Notes under the pieces: generated by a model
The model's input: only the letters and a program-made list of their open reading frames with translations
The model's database searches: none
What the model was told of the DNA's origin: nothing
Program-made: the position numbers and the translations under genes
In this document: positions 1-60,381 of the stretch, in pieces
Numbering within the stretch: the stretch's first letter is position 1
How the letters are laid out: each line of letters begins with the position of its first letter
NCBI GenBank assembly: GCA_964016885.1
Contig: OZ024745.1
Coordinates: 92,814,001 to 92,878,000 of the forward strand
Origin: Eledone cirrhosa
Lineage: Eukaryota
Direction of reading: 5' to 3'
DNA: 64,000 nucleotides

Positions 1-299
1 TTGAATAATATAATATATATATAATATATATAATATATATATATTATAATATATATATTATATATATATAAATATATATATATATTATATATATATTATA
101 TATATTATATATATATTATATATATTATAATATATATATATTATATATATATTATATATATTATAATATATATATATATATATTATAATATATATATATT
201 ATATATATATTATATATATTATAATATATATATATATATATTATATATATTATAATATATATATATATATTATAATATATATATATATATATATATATT
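1..299. repeat. (TA)n microsatellite with TTA/TAA interruptions
   Basis: Direct reading; ORFs here are low-complexity I/Y artefacts. Confidence 0.95.
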
Positions 300-4074: not shown

Positions 4075-4770
4075 AGTAATAATAATAAAATTGAAGACTA
4101 AAATCCAAAGAGGGCTCGATAAGGAAAATATATATCAAATATATAAGAACCGTAGAGCAAATATTTATTAAAATAACAGATTAAAGTTTAAGCAAAGAAT
4201 CGCTGCTTTCACCCTTAACGGGATCTTCTGAAACTAACAAAGTCAATCTGTAAACGCAGAACTGGATATTTCAAAAAACGTTGCAACCGGAGGAAGACAG
4301 GAAGACGATACTTTGGTTCGTGGAAATGTTCGCTGGCAAAGAACGGGAAAAAACAAATAATACGTCATTAATAGGAGTGGTGAAAAACCATTACGCACAA
4401 AGACTGAACCATGTTTATGGTATAAAAGAGGTCGTAGACTAATGTTCTCTTAGGTGGTTCATAGAGACGTTCTCTGGCAATGAACGAAAAAACGAAGATA
4501 ATACGTCATATGTGGAGCGTGGAGAACAATAGCACGCATAGACAAAACCACGTAAATGGTATAGCAGAAGTCGTAGAATAAAATTCTAACTAGGAGACCA
4601 AATGAATCTCCGCGTGCGTGGTTTTGTATACCTATGGTAAGGTTTTGCGTATGCTTGTGTATGTATGTATCTGTTTGCGTGTATATATTTATTTGTTTCT
4701 ATTACTTCTGTATTGTATTTATTTACTTTGTTCTTAACTCTGTAGCGGAGATTCATTTGGTCTCCTAGTG
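4075..4770 (-). mobile_element. Non-coding PLE-type terminal repeat fragment with ~130-bp internal direct duplication and 25-bp inverted repeat (4589-4613 / 4745-4769)
   Basis: Homologous copies at 8035-8330 and 23575-23830; carries a variant hammerhead at 4185-4235. Confidence 0.6.
4185..4235 (-). ncRNA. Variant-core hammerhead-like motif (CAGAAGA); copies at 8260-8311 (+) and 23584-23634 (-)
   Basis: agttt-CAGAAGA-tccc gtta agggt-GAAAgca gcgattctt tgcTT-aaact: all three stems pair, U4 is replaced by A. Confidence 0.55.
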
Positions 4771-5045
4771 CAGTTTTAAATCAACATATGTTGATTTAAA
4801 ACTGCACTATCCACAAGTGTTTTTTAACCTTCATATCATGTCATCCTATTTTATCTGATGAAAACACAAATGTTATTGCATGATGATATTTGTTTTTGAA
4901 ATGCGCATAATAAAATACATGGAACTCTTTTAACCATCTTTTGATCTTATATATTATGTATACTCCAGTCCTACAAACTGTAGAGTGCTTCTTATCCGAT
5001 ATCTGCATTGCTTTATTGTACTACAATAAAACTTACCTCCTACAT
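4766..5045 (+). mobile_element. Hammerhead-bearing non-coding element (same family as 22487-22810) starting with a 44-bp perfect palindrome
   Basis: tagtgcagttttaaatcaacat|atgttgatttaaaactgcacta at 4766-4809; 3' end cctcctaca runs into (TA)n. Confidence 0.8.
4847..4917 (+). ncRNA. Type I hammerhead ribozyme with long stem II
   Basis: tattttat-CTGATGA-aaacacaaatgttattgcatgatgatatttgttttt-GAAATGCGCATA-ataaaata: perfect 8-bp stem I, palindromic stem III ATGCGCAT, AUA site. Confidence 0.92.
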
Positions 5046-5102
5046 ATATATTATAATATATATATATATATTATAATATATATATATATATATTATATAT
5101 TA

Positions 5103-5702: not shown

Positions 5703-6620
5703 ATGTTTCCTGCATTCGGCGGTGGATTGTACCGTGATGATGGGCTCCTTACCCTTAAAGGGTACGACCCCAGTAGTACAGACCGGGTCCGTAAACAATT
5801 AATCAGCTTCTTCCGCGACTGGGGATTTAAAATAACCCTACAAACGTCCCTGACCCGAGTAAACTTCCTGGACGTTACCCTTGACCTCGATAATGATCTG
5901 TTCTACCCATACAGGAAACCCAACGACAACCTGCACTACACCCACCGCCGGTCATACCATCCTAGGAACATCACCAATAACCTAGTTAAAAACATCTCCC
6001 TCCGCATATCTCGTTTGTCCGCTAATGAGCAGATATTCGAGGAACATGCGCCTTATTACAACCAGGCCCTCAAGCGGAGTGGTTTCCGAGAGGAAATATC
6101 CTACTGTCCAGCTTCCATTAGCGGAACCAGCAGGCGACACCGCCACCCACGCAATGTAACATGGTTCAATCCTCCCCACAACGCCGAGGTGACAACTCCT
6201 ATCGGGAAAATCTTCTTTAAGCTCATCGAAAAACACCTCTACCACAACATAATCAACAAAAATACCATCAAACTCTCCTACAGCACCACACCAAACTTTG
6301 CACAAAACATTGTCTCCTCTAACAACAAAAACTCAACCCCTATGGAAGAAATAACCTAAATAGCAGTGGAGAGCCGACCAGGAGGTGCAACTGTCCTGAT
6401 GGATCCATTTTCCCCCTGCAGAGATCGTAATGTGATCTACCAGTGCAACGCGAGGACGGACACCTCCAACAAAGCTTATATAGGATTAACCGCATGTGAC
6501 TTCAAGACCCGGCTATACCAACAGAGACATACTTTCCGAAACCCGGCCCGGCGTCACGCCACCACACTTTCGGGCCACATCTGGGACCTCAAAGATAACA
6601 ATATTACCTATGATCTCTAA
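5703..6620 (+). mobile_element. 5'-truncated Penelope-like retroelement: RT C-terminal half plus C-terminal GIY-YIG endonuclease (frameshifted, pseudogenised)
   Basis: LYRDDGL, NFLDVTL, PYRKP, WFNPP, IKLSYS; RCNCP in an alternate frame; VIYQC...YIGLT..FKTRL..RHTF..TTLSGHIWDLK; abuts (TA)n. Confidence 0.92.
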
Positions 6621-22472: not shown

Positions 22473-22486
22473 TGTGTATATATATA

Positions 22487-22810
22487 TGTAGGAGGTGAGT
22501 TTTATTGTAGTACAATAAAGCAATGCAGATATCGGATAAGAAGCACTCTACAGTTTGTAGGACTGGAGTATACATAATATATAAGATCAAAAGATGGTTA
22601 AAGGAGTTCCATGTATTTTATTATGCGCATTTCAAAAACAAATATGTTGATTTAAAACTGCACTATCCACAAGTGTTTTTTAGCCTTCATATCATGTCCT
22701 CCTGTTTTATCTGATGAAAACACAAATATTATTGCATGATGATGTTTGTTTTTGAAATGCGCATAATAAAATACATGGAACTCCTTTAACCATCTTTTGA
22801 TCTTATATAT
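22487..22810. mobile_element. Fold-back copy of the 4766-5045 hammerhead element
   Basis: 22487-22644 is the inverted 3' part; 22643-22810 is the forward 5' part; arms 22577-22644 / 22743-22810 pair; flanked by TA runs. Confidence 0.88.
22703..22773 (+). ncRNA. Type I hammerhead ribozyme
   Basis: tgttttat-CTGATGA-aaacacaaatattattgcatgatgatgtttgttttt-GAAATGCGCATA-ataaaata; substitutions relative to the 4847 copy preserve pairing via G-U. Confidence 0.92.
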
Positions 22811-24274
22811 TATATATATATATATATATGCCAGTATGAAAAAAAGGACAATGATGATAGGCACATTTATATAATATTAGGGATGACTACTTCTAAAAGA
22901 GAACTCAATACATGTCTAGGGTGTGTCAGTGTTTGCATATATAAAGAGATGTGGGGTGAAGCAGCGGGCAATAAGAGAAGACATTTATAAAACTATTAGA
23001 CAGCAATCTGAAAGTGTGGCAACACTAGTACCATATTTTTATAGAGAAATGTCACAAATCTAAAACCTCTAATAAACTCTAACTATATAGAAATAACTTT
23101 GAATAATAGTGCCAAGAAGGTATTAATATTATAACATAAATCCTTGAATTTTCATTAGCTGCTTTAATGAATATATCCATATGTGCACATTACAGACATA
23201 TACAAAATGTCTGCATAGATATGCTCAATGTGCTCACACGTGTGCACATTGAGCATGTAGACACACAAAATCATTTTCTTTAAAGAAACTCCTCAATATC
23301 ATAAATTGCATAATATTTAATAAACACCCAACATCATTGCAAAATATATATATATATGTATTTATAAACCAACTGGTGTTGGTACCAAAGCAAGCACTCT
23401 ATGCATGTGCATAACAGGTCAATACACAATAAATATCTTTTAATATATATATCATTTCATTTTTTCATCATTTCATTTTACGTCCGCTTTTCATAGAAAA
23501 AAACAAGGACATTAATCGATGATGATGATGTAAACGAAACTTCCTCGATTTTTTCTATTATATATATTATAAGAACAGATTAAAGTTTAAGCAAGGAATC
23601 GCTGCTTTCACCCATAACAGGATCTTCTAAAACTGAAAAAAAAAAAAATCACTCTGTGGACACAGAAGTAAATATAAAAAAAAAAACGTTACAACCAAAG
23701 AAAACCAGGAAGATGATACATTGGTTTGTGAAGACATTCTCTGGCGATAGATGAAAAAATGTGAGGATAATTACACCGTTATGTGTAGCGAGAAGAACAA
23801 ACTCTTGCAAAGGCAAAAACACATTTATGCTATAAAAGAAATCAATGGACTAATATTTAGAATAATCGAATGATTTCCATCTCCAGAGTTTGAGGATAAT
23901 GTAAATAAAATAATTAAACGAAAATGACAGTTCTTAATAATAGAAAACATTAAAGTAATGTTATAAGATTAACGTCCGTGCATAATTATGTGCTTACGCA
24001 AACATATATATATATATACATATACATATAAATACATACACAGATACACACATACGTGTACATATATACATACACACATGAATATGCATTTAATATACGC
24101 ATGCATGTGTATATGCGCATATACCCACTCGATGTTCAGTAAGCATATGCTTATACACACACGTGCACACTCCCACTTGCAAAGGGTAATAAATACACCC
24201 GTACACATATATACATATAAATCCACATATACACATATACATGTGTACACATACCCATACATATACACACACAT

Positions 24275-25410: not shown

Positions 25411-25746
25411 ATCATCATCATCATTTTACGTCCACTTTTCCCTGCTTGAAAGGGTGGGACGGGAACTGGTTCTGGCTTGATTTCTACAGCTGGATGCTCT
25501 TCCTAACACCAACATCATTTACAGTGAGTGCTGGGTGCTTTTTTGCCGTGGCACCTACACGTCCACTTTACAGTGGAATGATAGGGACCTCAGTCCCTAT
25601 CATCTCATTTCTACAGCTGAGTAAACTGGAGCAATGTGAAATAAAGTGTCTTGCTCAAGGAAAGAACACATCACCCGGTCTGAGAATTGAACTCACAACC
25701 TTTCGATTGCAAGGCCAATGCTCTAACCACTAAGCCATGTGCCTCC
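25411..25746 (-). mobile_element. tRNA-derived SINE family 1, full length
   Basis: Reverse complement of 25799-26131. Confidence 0.92.
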
Positions 25747-25798
25747 ATTTTTATTACTAGATATATATATATACACATACACACATTATATATATATA

Positions 25799-26128
25799 GA
25801 GGCACATGGCTTAGTGGTTAGAGCATTGGCCTTGCAATCGAAAGGTTGTGAGTTCAATTCTCAGACCGGGTGATGTGTTGTTTCCTTGAGCAAGATACTT
25901 TATTTCACATTGCTCCAGTTTACTCAGCTGTAGAAATGAGATGATAGGGACTGGGGTCCATATCATTCCACTGTAAAGTAGTCGTGGAGGTGCCACGGCA
26001 AAAAGCACGCAGCACTCACTGTAAATGAGGTTGGTGTTAGGAAGGGCATCCAGCTGTAGAAATCAAGCCAGAATCAGTTCCCGTTCCACCCTTGCAAGCA
26101 GGGAAAAAGCAGATGTAAAATGAAATGA

Positions 26129-29210: not shown

Positions 29211-29246
29211 TCTCCTGATGAAGGGCTTATGCCCGAAACGTCGTCC
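29211..29246 (+). ncRNA. Minimal hammerhead core with degenerate stem I, in a probable PLE 3' terminal repeat (~28540-29340)
   Basis: CTGATGA-agggc ttat gccc-GAAACGTC; downstream tcaagcgtgaaactaata resembles the sequence after the 35184 motif. Confidence 0.6.
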
Positions 29247-29342
29247 CCCACCGCCCCACTCTCAAGCGTGAAACTAATACTAATATCATTTGTACTGCCT
29301 CTTCGTTTTTCTGTTTTTTGTTCTCTATTTATTAAACTATAT

Positions 29343-42014: not shown

Positions 42015-42232
42015 TGCATGCATGCATGTGTGTGTGCATGCATGCGTGTAATAAGTTACAACAGTGACATGTATAGGTAGTTAAGTTCCATTAGGTTATT
42101 CACTCCAACTCATTCAGCCTGTCATATATGGAGATTTTAGAAAGTATAGGAGAGTTCTATATATTTATATATATATATATATTTATATATACGATATTAA
42201 CAAATGGAAACTATATTTATAAAACCATATTT

Positions 42233-42295
42233 ATTTCATTATACATATTTCAAGAACACCATGTTAAATTATGGTGTGCTTTCATCAGATAAAAT
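42233..42295 (-). ncRNA. Type I hammerhead ribozyme (intact core)
   Basis: - strand: attttat-CTGATGA-aagcacaccat aatttaac atggtgttctt-GAAATATGTATA-atgaaat. Confidence 0.9.
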
Positions 42296-42375
42296 ATAAT
42301 ATAGATCAGTTTTATAAATAAATATTGACATACCCTTAAAAAATGCAACCATTACTGTTGGAAGCTCCCGGGAGC

Positions 42376-42436
42376 TTTTATTTGATGAAAGCACACCATA
42401 ATTTAACTTGGTGTTCTTGAAATATGTATAATGAAA
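42376..42436 (+). ncRNA. Hammerhead copy with C3U core substitution (TTGATGA)
   Basis: ttttat-TTGATGA-aagcacacca...tggtgttctt-GAAATATGTATA-atgaaa. Confidence 0.7.
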
Positions 42437-42565
42437 TAAATATGGTTTTATAAATATAGTTTCCATTTGTTAATATCGTATTTTTACTCCAAATATTTGT
42501 TGAGTGCTTTATATCAGTTATAAAAATATTTGCTTGTTGTATCCCAACAATTTAAATAGAACTTT

Positions 42566-42608
<43 letters not shown>

Positions 42609-45519
42609 CTCAATAACAAATCCCAAAACATAATTTAAATGTCCCCATACCGGGCAAAATATTTTTTTTTTCTACAATAGAATGTTCACATATTAAGAGA
42701 ACCACAACACAATTGTAAAATAGACATCTTATAGATTTCTCCAAGAATGTAGTATCCTAAACATTGGTAGAAATTTTTCCAAAGTATTGCATAAATGATC
42801 TGTTTGATGAAAGACAACTTTCATAATTTCAAAAGCTTTCAGAATTACTATTTATACAGTTCTGAGATAATTAAAGCAATTAAAGCAGTTGTTATCAAAG
42901 GCAGGTAAAACAAAGAGGTTGTCAATAATAAGTGGATTGCCATCAACTAATGAGATTTACAATCCTGGCTTAATTTACAATCAGATTTGTTTTCCCCATA
43001 GATCTAAGTTTTGCTGCTGCTGGAAGAAAGCAAATTGTAAAGATTAGATAGATTTACTGAAAGAGAAATATTTAATTTTGTACTTAATTCCAGTAACATC
43101 TCAGTTGACCAGACTTTGGTCAAATCTTACAAAGTTGTTAGCTAAGCTATCGAACTGAGAAACATATCTCTAATAGCGATAGAAGGGCAATGAAATACTT
43201 CTTTTAAGCCCAAATAAACTGTCAAAAGGTTCCTACAAATCAAGAAGAAATTACTTTATTTATAAGAAACAGTTTAACACTTTAGCATTTAAACTGGCCA
43301 TATCCGGCCAGAATTCTCTCACCTCTTTCTGTCCAAACCGGCCGCTCATACCAACGTTAAGGCATTGTTCTCAAAATAAATGATATCAAAATCTCATAGA
43401 TTCGATACCATGAAAATACAATAGTATATATAGAGTAATGTAAATGCTAAAGGGTTAAATATAAAGAAAAAACTACTTTCTTTATAAGAAACAGTTTAAT
43501 AAAGCTCTAAATTTCTTTTTTTTTTTTTTTTCCATCTACAAGTATTGCCCACAAAGTTTTGAAGAAAAAAAAATCAGAGAATATATTATACAGCTTTTAC
43601 CCAAAATTAACATCTACGTTTCATCTAAACTATTGTGCCAAATAGTTTTACCCATTCTTAAATACTAATATTATCTTGTTCAGAAATTTGATGGGCCAAG
43701 GTCAACAACATTAAATGATTTTATTTTTACAGTTAGAAACCAGTGAATAAATATAAAATGTCACCTTTTCACATTTGTTCACAGGAGGTTTTGATTTTTT
43801 TTTTATTATTCAGAATTTTTCTTTTTTATCTTTTGTAGAAAAATGCCATTGTGAATGATATAATTTATAGGAGTGTTGATTGCAAAACATTCACTATACA
43901 CCTCACTTTGCCAAAATGATAACCTAGCATATACTGCTTGTTTACATTCCAGAATGACTCAAGATTGCTTTGTTGAGGTGTGTTCTTAACCTTGATGCTA
44001 CTACCGGCCAGGTTTTCAAACATTATTTATGGAATTTCAGAAAATTTACCATATATCAGCTCAACATTTGTGAATCTTTGAGAAATAAAAGTTTTACACT
44101 TATTGCTCATATCTTACTATCAAGTATGCCTAATTAGGATTTCCTTCTTGTACAGTACAGATAATCTACCAGTGGATTGGAAGTATCGGTAGAGGGTTGG
44201 ATACAATGCTTTGACACAGAGTTACGGCCCTTGCCATTCTGAGTTCAAATCCCGCTGAGGTTAACTTTGCCTTTCATCCTTACAGGGTCGATAAAATAAA
44301 GTACCAGTAATACACTGGGCAATTGCTGGCCTTGTGCCAAAAGTAGAAACAATTAAATCTTTGCTAGTCACTTTTAACTTCTTATTCTACTAAATGATAC
44401 TATTTAAATGTGGGGGGAGGGGTTCTGGAATAGAATCTTAATAATTCAGAAATGATTAATGTATTATTGTGGATATTTCATTTTATCTTTTCCAACTTTG
44501 TCACGTTTCATTGTCATTGAACAATAATTGCAGCAGGGTAAGAAATTCTGCATATTTTTCTTCTATTAAATAGTTTGGGGCTATGTTGTCATTGTCAATA
44601 GTTAAATTTTTTTTATTCTCTAAATTTTATTTACAAGCGTTCATTTGACAGATATGGAATGTTGTTCAATAAATTGTACAGAAAAAGAAAGCTGCACTGG
44701 AATGGACTATAAATGGCATAAATGAGAGGAAATGGAAGGAAAGAGCCAGGACTATTAGGCAACGGAAGAAAGAAAGGGTGAAGGAGGGAGGATGACAGAT
44801 TCTACACATAGGTCAGAGCAGTGTTTCGGCTGTGCCCTGCAGACAAAATGGTAAAAATCAATTTATTTATTGATTAAACCTTTTATTTCAAAAAGTCACT
44901 GACTATGATTTTCAAATAACTTTGGAAAAAATTATGGATTTGAGGGGATTTAATAAAATAAGATCTCCATTATTTATCTGGTGTTTAAAGACAGTGGATT
45001 GGCAGTATCAGTAGAGCATCTGACAACATGCTTTGCAGCATAGAGTTACTGCCGAGATTAACTTTACCTTTCATCCTTACATGGTTGATAAAATACAGTA
45101 CCAGTAATGCACCGGGCTAAATTTAATCCCCCCCCCCACCACCACCACCACAAAAAAAAAAAATAATAAATAAATAAAACAAATAATATTTTTTTAAATT
45201 GTTGCCCTTGTGCCCAAATCAGAAACCATCATTTATGTGGAGTTTGGAATATAACTCAACAAAGGTACTTACAAAGATAAATATAAACATTTTATAAGTT
45301 TTGTATTGTAGGGTCAGAAGTGCTTTCAGGCCTCAAAATAGTTAATGACGAATAATCAGCCACACAACACAACATGCCAATTTACACTTTTAATTTTAGT
45401 GGAATATAATTTTAAATTGTATATGCTTCTCATTGATCTGCTAGGTCCTAAATGCAACTAAATATTAACTTCTTAGGGTTTATAGAAAGACAGAACAATC
45501 ATATCCATGCAAATATGGA

Positions 45520-59324: not shown

Positions 59325-59717
<393 letters not shown>

Positions 59718-59733
59718 AATTAAATATAACCTC

Positions 59734-59798
<65 letters not shown>

Positions 59799-59959: not shown

Positions 59960-60381
59960 CTCCCACCGCTTGTTATATATAAAAACAATGAGTTAGAGAC
60001 TTTGTTGGTATGTAATTAACAGAGTTATGTTCATAACAGATATGAAGCACTCGACAGCTAAATTTATCTGGAGTATTATAATAATAATAATAATAATAAT
60101 AGTAATAAATGGAGTATATATCACTATAGCATCATAATTTATTTCGTTATATATATTTCAGGGATACTAAGTTATAGAATGCCTTCTTCAGACAAAATAC
60201 AATATTAGATGTATAAAATGTGACATACTCATAAGAGAGATCACATGTCACATTTTATACATCTAATATTGTATTTTGTCTGAAGGCATTCTATAACTTA
60301 GTATCCCTGAAATATATATAACGAAATAAATTATGATGCTATAGTGATATATACTCCATTTATTACTATTATTATTATTAT
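59960..60381. mobile_element. Fold-back hammerhead element; arms ~60085-60226 / 60245-60381
   Basis: Inverted arms read directly; - strand tail tactcc...gtcgagtgcttcatatctgttat resembles tails at 42485-42520 and 59650-59690. Confidence 0.85.
60140..60199 (-). ncRNA. Type I hammerhead ribozyme (CUGAAGA core); + strand mirror copy 60272-60328 has a 3-nt core deletion
   Basis: - strand: tattttgt-CTGAAGA-aggcattcta taact tagtatccct-GAAATATATATA-acgaaata. Confidence 0.88.

What the first reader, a model, noticed from the sequence alone, without database searches (positions are those of the whole stretch)
42189..42481. Ambisense hammerhead pair: intact on minus strand, C3U on plus strand
The inverted duplication spans the entire ribozyme, so either transcript polarity contains a hammerhead plus its full antisense. 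That would form a ~105-bp duplex able to switch cleavage off after transcription. One copy keeps CTGATGA and the other reads TTGATGA. A 16-bp palindrome aagctcccgggagctt (42362-42377) marks the start of the forward copy. The layout recalls viroid-like ambisense RNAs, but it could be only a by-product of PLE template switching.
Basis: partly seen in the sequence, partly recalled or inferred. Interest (0 to 1): 0.72.

Follow-up and report, generated by a model that had tools for sequence, protein, structure and literature searches.

The report
Mirror-image stub of Penelope-like retrotransposon
This hairpin is one of thousands of stubs of a common jumping gene, two short copies of the same ribozyme-bearing end pasted head to head into a TA repeat, and the mutation in one ribozyme occurs no more often than neighbouring mutations, so it is an ordinary insertion footprint and most likely not a viroid-like switch.

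Summary
The inverted repeat, both hammerhead motifs, the C3U change and the 16-bp palindrome are real. They are one short insertion of an abundant Hydra-clade Penelope-like retrotransposon (PLE): two 5'-truncated copies of its hammerhead-bearing end, head to head in (TA)n. The insertion runs on to 42566 through an 85-nt one-sided tail. Longer copies carry the RT plus GIY-YIG ORF with Hydra motifs. The layout is published, including hammerheads on opposite strands. The switch reading fails: C3U is at background genome-wide (54 arms versus 65 and 65 for two non-core C>T controls, against 4,256 intact), one-arm lesions are not in excess, and in either polarity the antisense arm is transcribed before the ribozyme. 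Junctions differ between copies, so the hairpin does not spread as a unit. Residual interest is mechanistic: 74 of 83 two-armed insertions have one short and one tailed end, arms share rare variants, and a third of arms reaching one base begin exactly there, suggesting double priming on one leader RNA. The scan noted the same kind of footprint before in other genomes and in other families of this genome. Expression and cleavage are untested.

The parts
42158..42188 (.). Left (TA)n target microsatellite
   Evidence: Sequence; homologous copies are flanked by (TA)n on both sides
42189..42371 (-). Short-ended arm: PLE end from element position -83 to +99 (C3 = 0), ending at the first fixed 3' end, no tail
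   Evidence: 127 of 241 unique arms end at +94..+105
42225..42304 (-). Type I hammerhead with intact core (C3 at 42288), 15-bp stem I, 9-bp stem II, 2-bp palindromic stem III (dimer type), predicted cut after 42240
   Evidence: core columns conserved across copies; cleavage not tested
42362..42377 (.). Junction palindrome centred on the element's own self-complementary CCGG (-83..-80); 8 nt of mirror copy, then a 69-nt skip over a 2-nt microhomology into the plus arm
   Evidence: the same centre recurs with 4 to 175 bp of mirror in L002-L005, L007, L010, L024, L065, L146
42376..42481 (+). Tailed arm: PLE end from -6 to +99, with hammerhead copy carrying C3U at 42382 and only 6 bp of stem I; predicted site after 42430
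42482..42566 (+). 85-nt one-sided tail (+100..+184), ending at the second fixed 3' end; in full-length copies it lies about 50 nt upstream of the ORF's ATG
   Evidence: 106 of 241 unique arms end at +173..+184
42567..42606 (.). Right (TA)n target microsatellite
   Evidence: Sequence

Best explanation
This is a single short insertion of a Hydra-clade Penelope-like retrotransposon, made of two 5'-truncated copies of the element's hammerhead-bearing end joined head to head inside a TA microsatellite, likely produced by reverse transcription primed from both cut DNA strands, with C3U most likely a neutral change that arose after insertion. Shown: family identity, the ORF of longer copies, the two fixed 3' ends 85 nt apart, copy-specific junctions, background rate of C3U. 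Inferred mechanism: the element's endonuclease nicks both strands of (TA)n; one 3'-OH primes cDNA at RNA position +99, the other at +184; both cDNAs copy the uncut leader towards its 5' end (about -88); the longer cDNA folds back at the self-complementary CCGG, extends 8 nt and anneals over 2 nt to the shorter one (or a perfect palindrome later lost 69 nt at its centre); repair seals the joint. The two hammerheads are passengers: they lie between the RT start sites and the RNA 5' end, so nearly any two-armed copy longer than about 100 nt per arm carries one on each strand.
For: Whole-unit homologues: 40 scored of 1,084 candidates, 88 matches. 38,524 exact hits of a 31-mer of the arm; 3,009 candidates for the RT stretch. 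The junction differs among the aligned copies apart from re-fetched duplicates and one three-copy recurrence (L004, L024, L025). Arms extend 5' to any length, up to the whole ORF; L088 shows inverted arm, pLTR, ORF, 3' UTR, pLTR. ORF has RWR, DKT, YRDD, CxCx5C, no CCHH in GIY-YIG, CxxC and CxH around E and N, the Hydra definition in PMC8557442. One short plus one tailed end in 44 of 50 pairs not selected by the window query (p=2.5e-10 on the 47 with a classifiable second end) and 74 of 83 in the larger set. Arms of one insertion differ by 2.4% versus 5.7% between insertions; rare variants shared 86 times versus 4.7 expected, 184 private. Five insertions have C3U in both arms (10 of 54 arms; at most 0.7 expected). 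The window copy has the minority T at +33 on both arms but C3U on one. Published: inverted 5'-truncated copy and one-sided tail (PMC8557442 Fig. 2 legend; PMC3846280); dual hammerheads 100-700 bp apart on opposite strands (PMC4209133); two RT start sites delimiting the tail, both strands cut and extended, hammerhead mutants not affecting insertion in vitro (PMC11167929).
Against: Priming order and a single shared RNA are inferred. Shared variants could also come from two RNAs of one source element or from gene conversion between arms. [quoted passage not shown] 9 of 83 pairs break the rule (3 tail/tail, 1 short/short, 5 with an end elsewhere; 2 of the 3 tail/tail are an inverted arm beside the internal pLTR of a full copy whose far end is short). 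Template jump versus later central deletion cannot be told apart for this copy. No target-site duplication can be read in (TA)n. Pfam gave no RT or GIY-YIG hit on the ORF pieces; only 2 of 107 homologues carry PF00078. No tree with named Hydra elements was built. Samples come mostly from the first-listed places on contig 1, and duplicates may remain after de-duplication.
Confidence: 0.9

Rival explanations
1. Ambisense ribozyme switch: both polarities are transcribed, the duplex turns cleavage off, and one core was inactivated by selection.
For: The duplex is thermodynamically overwhelming; one arm has a core change. PLE pLTRs have been proposed to be bidirectional promoters (PMC3846280).
Against: C3U at background; one-arm lesions 9 of 45 versus 13.8 expected; antisense arm precedes the ribozyme in both polarities; 2-bp stem III needs a tandem partner that neither strand has here, and such monomers were inactive in vitro (PMC4209133); this copy starts at -83, downstream of the candidate start site and its TATA-like box; junction not conserved.
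Confidence: 0.02
2. Self-priming fold-back: one cDNA or antisense template folds back and is copied to make the mirror arm, giving a perfect palindrome that is later trimmed by central deletion (the Arkhipova 2013 type of model).
For: Perfect or near-perfect palindromes exist (L065, L136, L146: 142-175 bp); a mirror of 6 bp or more at the junction in 19 of 56 close pairs (8 of 29 not selected by the query); it explains shared variants and L003, whose mirror carries the long arm's private base; L088 has a deletion starting at the same CCGG.
Against: In 18 of 44 unselected pairs the tail-less arm reaches further 5' than the tailed arm (15 the reverse, 11 equal), so neither arm contains the other, as in the window copy; each such case needs an extra deletion. 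37 of 56 close junctions show no mirror of 6 bp.
Confidence: 0.25
3. A non-autonomous MITE-like or retrozyme-like element that spreads as a fixed 377-bp hairpin unit.
For: 40 loci match nearly the whole 377 bp.
Against: Those hits were ranked by likeness to the query; their junctions differ, arm lengths run from tens of bases to kilobases, ends are unequal, and the tail can sit on either the longer or shorter arm (L020, L021, L024). No direct tandem of the unit here.
Confidence: 0.03

Closest known systems
Hydra-clade EN+ Penelope-like elements (Craig et al. 2021, PMC8557442; e.g. Penelope-13_HM, Hydra-1_Obim)
   Same: Protein motifs, (TA)n target, type I hammerhead near the end, inverted 5'-truncated copy; Penelope-13_HM is listed with the same hammerhead on both strands (supplement).
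   Different: Hammerhead sequence differs from every Hydra entry in that table, including Hydra-1_Obim; 3' UTR about 1.5 kb, so the element is about 4 kb versus <3 kb; tail 85 nt versus 30-40 nt; tens of thousands of arms.
Inverted-pLTR insertions with optional tail and junction palindromes (Adineta Pen2a etc., PMC3846280; PMC8557442 Fig. 2)
   Same: Head-to-head arms, tail on one end, palindrome at the junction, TATA-like plus Inr-like motif near the pLTR 5' end.
   Different: Here there is no ORF between the arms; the insertion is only two pLTR pieces.
PLE minimal hammerheads (Cervera and de la Pena 2014, PMC4209133)
   Same: Long stem II, tiny palindromic stem III, dual motifs on opposite strands 100-700 bp apart.
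   Different: Their U3 variant is compensated by A8; here U3 sits with G8 and is a rare private change.
Anolis Poseidon PAc in vitro (Frangieh et al. 2024, PMC11167929)
   Same: Two RT start sites downstream of the hammerhead bracket the tail; AT-rich target; both strands extended; uncut RNA is the template.
   Different: Different clade; PAc start sites lie inside the ORF, here upstream of the ATG; no strict one-site-per-strand pairing was reported.
Avsunviroidae and other ambisense ribozyme circular RNAs (recalled, not from a call)
   Same: A hammerhead on each polarity.
   Different: There the two ribozymes are different sequences processing multimeric RNA-to-RNA replication products; here they are one DNA sequence duplicated in mirror image with no monomer repeat.

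Membership tests
Hydra-clade EN+ PLE | Single ORF, RT followed by C-terminal GIY-YIG endonuclease | tested here: met
   In longer copies of the same family, not in the window copy: L088, L089, L090; by motif and alignment, Pfam silent
Hydra-clade EN+ PLE | RWK motif and DKG changed to DKT | tested here: met
   RWR (RWK in 6 of 7 aligned homologues) and DKT in L088; definition
Hydra-clade EN+ PLE | CxCX5C linker; CCHH absent; CxxC and CxH flanking E and N | tested here: met
   L061 and L090 translations
Hydra-clade EN+ PLE | (TA)n insertion preference and canonical hammerhead near the end | tested here: met
Hydra-clade EN+ PLE | Groups with named Hydra elements in an RT tree | not tested
   Named Hydra proteins were not available as sequences; homologues are mostly unnamed
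EN+ PLE insertion footprint | Inverted 5'-truncated copy with tail at one end only | tested here: met
   Window copy; 74 of 83 pairs
EN+ PLE insertion footprint | Target-site duplication | tested here: inconclusive
   Both flanks are (TA)n
Type I hammerhead ribozyme (minus copy) | CUGANGA, GAAA, A15-U16, H17 and three stems | tested here: met
   stem III only 2 bp, dimer type; no Rfam hit
Type I hammerhead ribozyme (plus copy) | Intact C3-G8 core | tested here: not met
   U3 with G8; natural U3 cores are mentioned in PMC7151607, so some activity is not excluded
Type I hammerhead ribozyme | Self-cleavage | not testable with these tools
   Needs a bench assay
Viroid-like ambisense RNA / non-LTR retrozyme | Tandem direct monomers or circular RNA processed by the ribozymes | tested here: not met
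   No direct repeat of the unit at this locus; circular RNA itself not testable
MITE | Fixed-length unit with equal terminal inverted repeats and conserved interior | tested here: not met

The most novel reading that the evidence does not exclude
The family is a natural record of an undescribed rule of PLE insertion: one (probably dimeric) enzyme complex primes both cut strands on one uncut, capped leader RNA, always using a different one of the two RT start sites for each strand, and the cDNAs run off at the transcription start (-88) and are joined through the CCGG palindrome. Support: 74 of 83 short-plus-tail pairs, shared rare variants, 593 of 1,802 arms starting at exactly one base behind a TATA-like and Inr-like motif, few arms starting at the ribozyme cut. 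I did not find this pairing rule stated in the passages read (searches), though 'tail at one end' is published and earlier scan notes propose similar models.
Probability: 0.4. Interest if true: 0.45.

Novelty: new member of a known kind. Interest (0 to 1): 0.16.

Why it matters
As a locus it does not: it is one of thousands of dead stubs. It matters as a caution (opposite-strand hammerhead pairs in animal genomes are the default by-product of PLE insertion, not viroid-like RNAs) and because this young, very abundant family gives numbers for how PLEs build their inverted ends, which the papers read here call unresolved. The 85-nt tail makes the two start sites easy to tell apart in an in vitro test.

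Tried and rejected
Rfam scans of the window and of 42100-42620: no hammerhead family. Pfam on ORF pieces: nothing above cut-off. RNA runs: no RNA holder listed; laying 4 contig sets of unknown kind showed only that the family and many other junctions are present; neither bears on expression. Cap-derived G before the -88 start: G in 38 of the first 100 listed matches (my count), but among 30 loci inspected only about 5 of 13 G's look untemplated: inconclusive. Cleaved RNA as template: 304 arms have a non-A before the cut site; of 30 inspected, 4 rows (3 insertions) truly start there by eye (the script flagged 10; 6 of those still carry the ribozyme); the neighbouring-position control failed because it hit a subfamily variant (2,361 hits), and junctions that restore the A are invisible. 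A special C>T hotspot between arms: C>T and G>A are similar (40 and 33). The cut position printed was off by one and was corrected. No earlier scan note matched by sequence.

Full report
Observation. The inverted repeat is real: arms 42184-42294 and 42376-42486, with two mismatches in the 106-nt true overlap, at hammerhead position 3 (C on the minus copy, T on the plus copy) and in loop II. Both copies have the parts of a type I hammerhead: stem II of 9 bp, GAAA, a 2-bp stem III whose 8-nt segment is self-complementary, and an AUA triplet; stem I is 15 bp on the minus copy and 6 bp on the plus copy (correcting an off-by-one). Rfam does not detect them. Either full transcript is predicted to fold as a long hairpin of about -170 kcal/mol.

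What it is. Searching the own genome with the 377-bp unit gave 88 matches from 40 scored of 1,084 candidates. Aligning 30 loci plus a second window copy showed fixed outer ends and differing central junctions. A 28-mer from the spacer has 1,476 exact hits, often as opposed pairs tens to thousands of bases apart; a 31-mer of the arm has 38,524 (older subfamilies included). Longer arms run through a 1.5-kb UTR into an ORF. Twenty 9.5-kb stretches around RT hits include near-complete copies; L088 reads inverted arm, pLTR with hammerhead and tail, ORF, UTR, pLTR. The protein has RWR, DKT, YRDD, CxCx5C, a GIY-YIG domain without CCHH, and CxxC and CxH around the conserved E and N, which is the definition of the Hydra clade of Penelope-like elements (PMC8557442 section 11). 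107 homologues were found, two named from Octopus species, which suggests a cephalopod host; Pfam was silent and no tree was built.

Anatomy of insertions. With C3 as position 0, 233 of 241 unique arms end at +94..105 or +173..184, in about equal numbers (127 and 106). Among head-to-head pairs not chosen by the window query, 44 of 50 have one end of each kind; in the larger set 74 of 83, with 3 tail/tail, 1 short/short and 5 with one end elsewhere (L001-L030 were left out because the query selects for this layout). Independent choice would give about half. The tail-less arm reaches further 5' in 18, the tailed arm in 15, and they are equal in 11 of 44. Arms of one insertion are closer than arms of different insertions (2.4% versus 5.7%) and share rare variants (86 versus 4.7 expected, 184 private); subfamily structure and gene conversion can contribute to this. 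5' ends pile up at -88 to -78: of 1,802 arms holding the word that starts at -88, 593 lack the base that precedes it in the element. That base follows a TATA-like stretch and lies in an Inr-like motif, like the pLTR promoter described for Adineta Pen2a (PMC3846280); a transcription start is my inference. The window's palindrome is centred on the element's own CCGG at -83..-80, followed by 8 nt of mirror and a 69-nt skip over 2 nt of microhomology; the same centre recurs in other copies with 4 to 175 bp of mirror.

The C3U test. Whole-genome exact counts of one 32-mer: 4,256 intact, 54 with C3U, 65 with C>T at the stem II mismatch, 65 with C>T in loop II; Fisher p=0.36. Five insertions have C3U in both arms, against at most 0.7 arms expected by chance. 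Among 53 pairs not chosen for a lesion, 8 have one arm truncated in the core; of the other 45, 32 have both cores intact, 9 one lesion, 4 two, against 29.6, 13.8 and 1.6 under independence. There is thus no excess of core lesions and no excess of one-arm lesions. The window copy carries a minority base at +33 on both arms but C3U on one, so C3U most likely arose during or after insertion.

Why not a switch. The copies point outward, so a transcript entering from either flank makes the antisense arm before the ribozyme; pairing would be expected to block folding from the start, not after cleavage (inference from the sequence). A transcript starting between the arms would hold no antisense, and this copy lacks the candidate start and TATA-like box. 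Hammerheads with such a stem III need a tandem partner; a monomer was inactive and dimers weak in vitro (PMC4209133), and the Anolis PLE hammerhead needed protein and was dispensable for insertion (PMC11167929). Expression is untested: no RNA holder was listed.

Mechanism. Best reading: the endonuclease cuts both strands of (TA)n, each 3' end primes cDNA at a different one of two RNA sites 85 nt apart, the cDNAs copy uncut RNA towards its 5' end and are joined by fold-back and microhomology. Two start sites bracketing the tail and extension of both strands are shown in vitro for another PLE; their strict pairing, one shared RNA and the joining step are inferred here. The main rival is fold-back copying of one arm followed by central deletion (PMC3846280), which fits the perfect palindromes but needs an extra deletion whenever neither arm contains the other. 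Few arms start at the ribozyme cut (3 insertions among 30 inspected of 304 candidates), though the control failed.

Relation to what is known. The layout is published: inverted 5'-truncated copy and one-sided tail (PMC8557442), junction palindromes (PMC3846280), hammerheads on opposite strands 100-700 bp apart (PMC4209133), and a Hydra-clade consensus with the hammerhead on both strands (supplement of PMC8557442). The family itself is not among the hammerheads listed there. The same window holds two more such footprints (59460-59735 and 22480-22830). Earlier scan notes reach the same reading for other genomes and for other families in this genome; they are leads, not support.

Papers seen: PMC8557442, passages, section 11, supplement part 2 of 59 and two supplement searches; PMC11167929, parts 1-2 of 4; PMC4209133, parts 1-2 of 4; PMC3846280, passages; PMC7151607, passages; bioRxiv 10.64898/2026.07.22.740005, passages only (its supplements were not seen and could list related families). 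Five searches. The viroid comparison is recalled.

Verdict: observation confirmed with two corrections; switch interpretation not supported, by-product interpretation supported; new member of a known kind; interest 0.16.

Noticed in passing
window 59460-59735: Second copy of the same family (older subfamily) in (TA)n: short arm plus tailed arm, joined inside stem II so that neither arm keeps CUGAUGA.
   Followed up: partly
window 22480-22830 and 4750-5050: A second hammerhead-bearing family with a perfectly palindromic stem III: at 22480-22830 a tailed minus arm truncated in stem II and a short plus arm with intact core (22711); at 4855 a tailed plus copy preceded by a junction palindrome.
   Followed up: partly
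window 5706-6545 (+): Broken Hydra-like PLE ORF fragment (35% identity to the family protein) directly behind a (TA)n-like array.
   Followed up: partly
window 29215-29260 (+): Compact hammerhead-like core with a 4-bp stem II next to a C-rich stretch; probably the end of another PLE family.
   Followed up: no
window 25673-25870: Inverted pair of a tRNA-like repeat around a (TA)n-rich spacer; a piece of the same repeat precedes the arm in L217 and follows L009.
   Followed up: no
window 60140-60335: Another fold-back of about 190 nt with a CTGAAG-type motif, flanked by (AAT)n; may be a further PLE stub.
   Followed up: no
L095:1-3930: Mirror-image arrays of a 310-nt tandem unit next to a family copy; resembles the two-armed retrozyme arrays in earlier scan notes.
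   Followed up: no
L203, L204, L212-L214: An older subfamily has G at hammerhead position 17 on both arms of an insertion and other N7 bases, with covarying stem II; inherited, not private.
   Followed up: no
L088:4640-4975: In full-length copies the order is candidate start site, hammerhead, two RT start sites, then ATG about 50 nt after the tail, so the hammerhead lies in the 5' UTR.
   Followed up: partly
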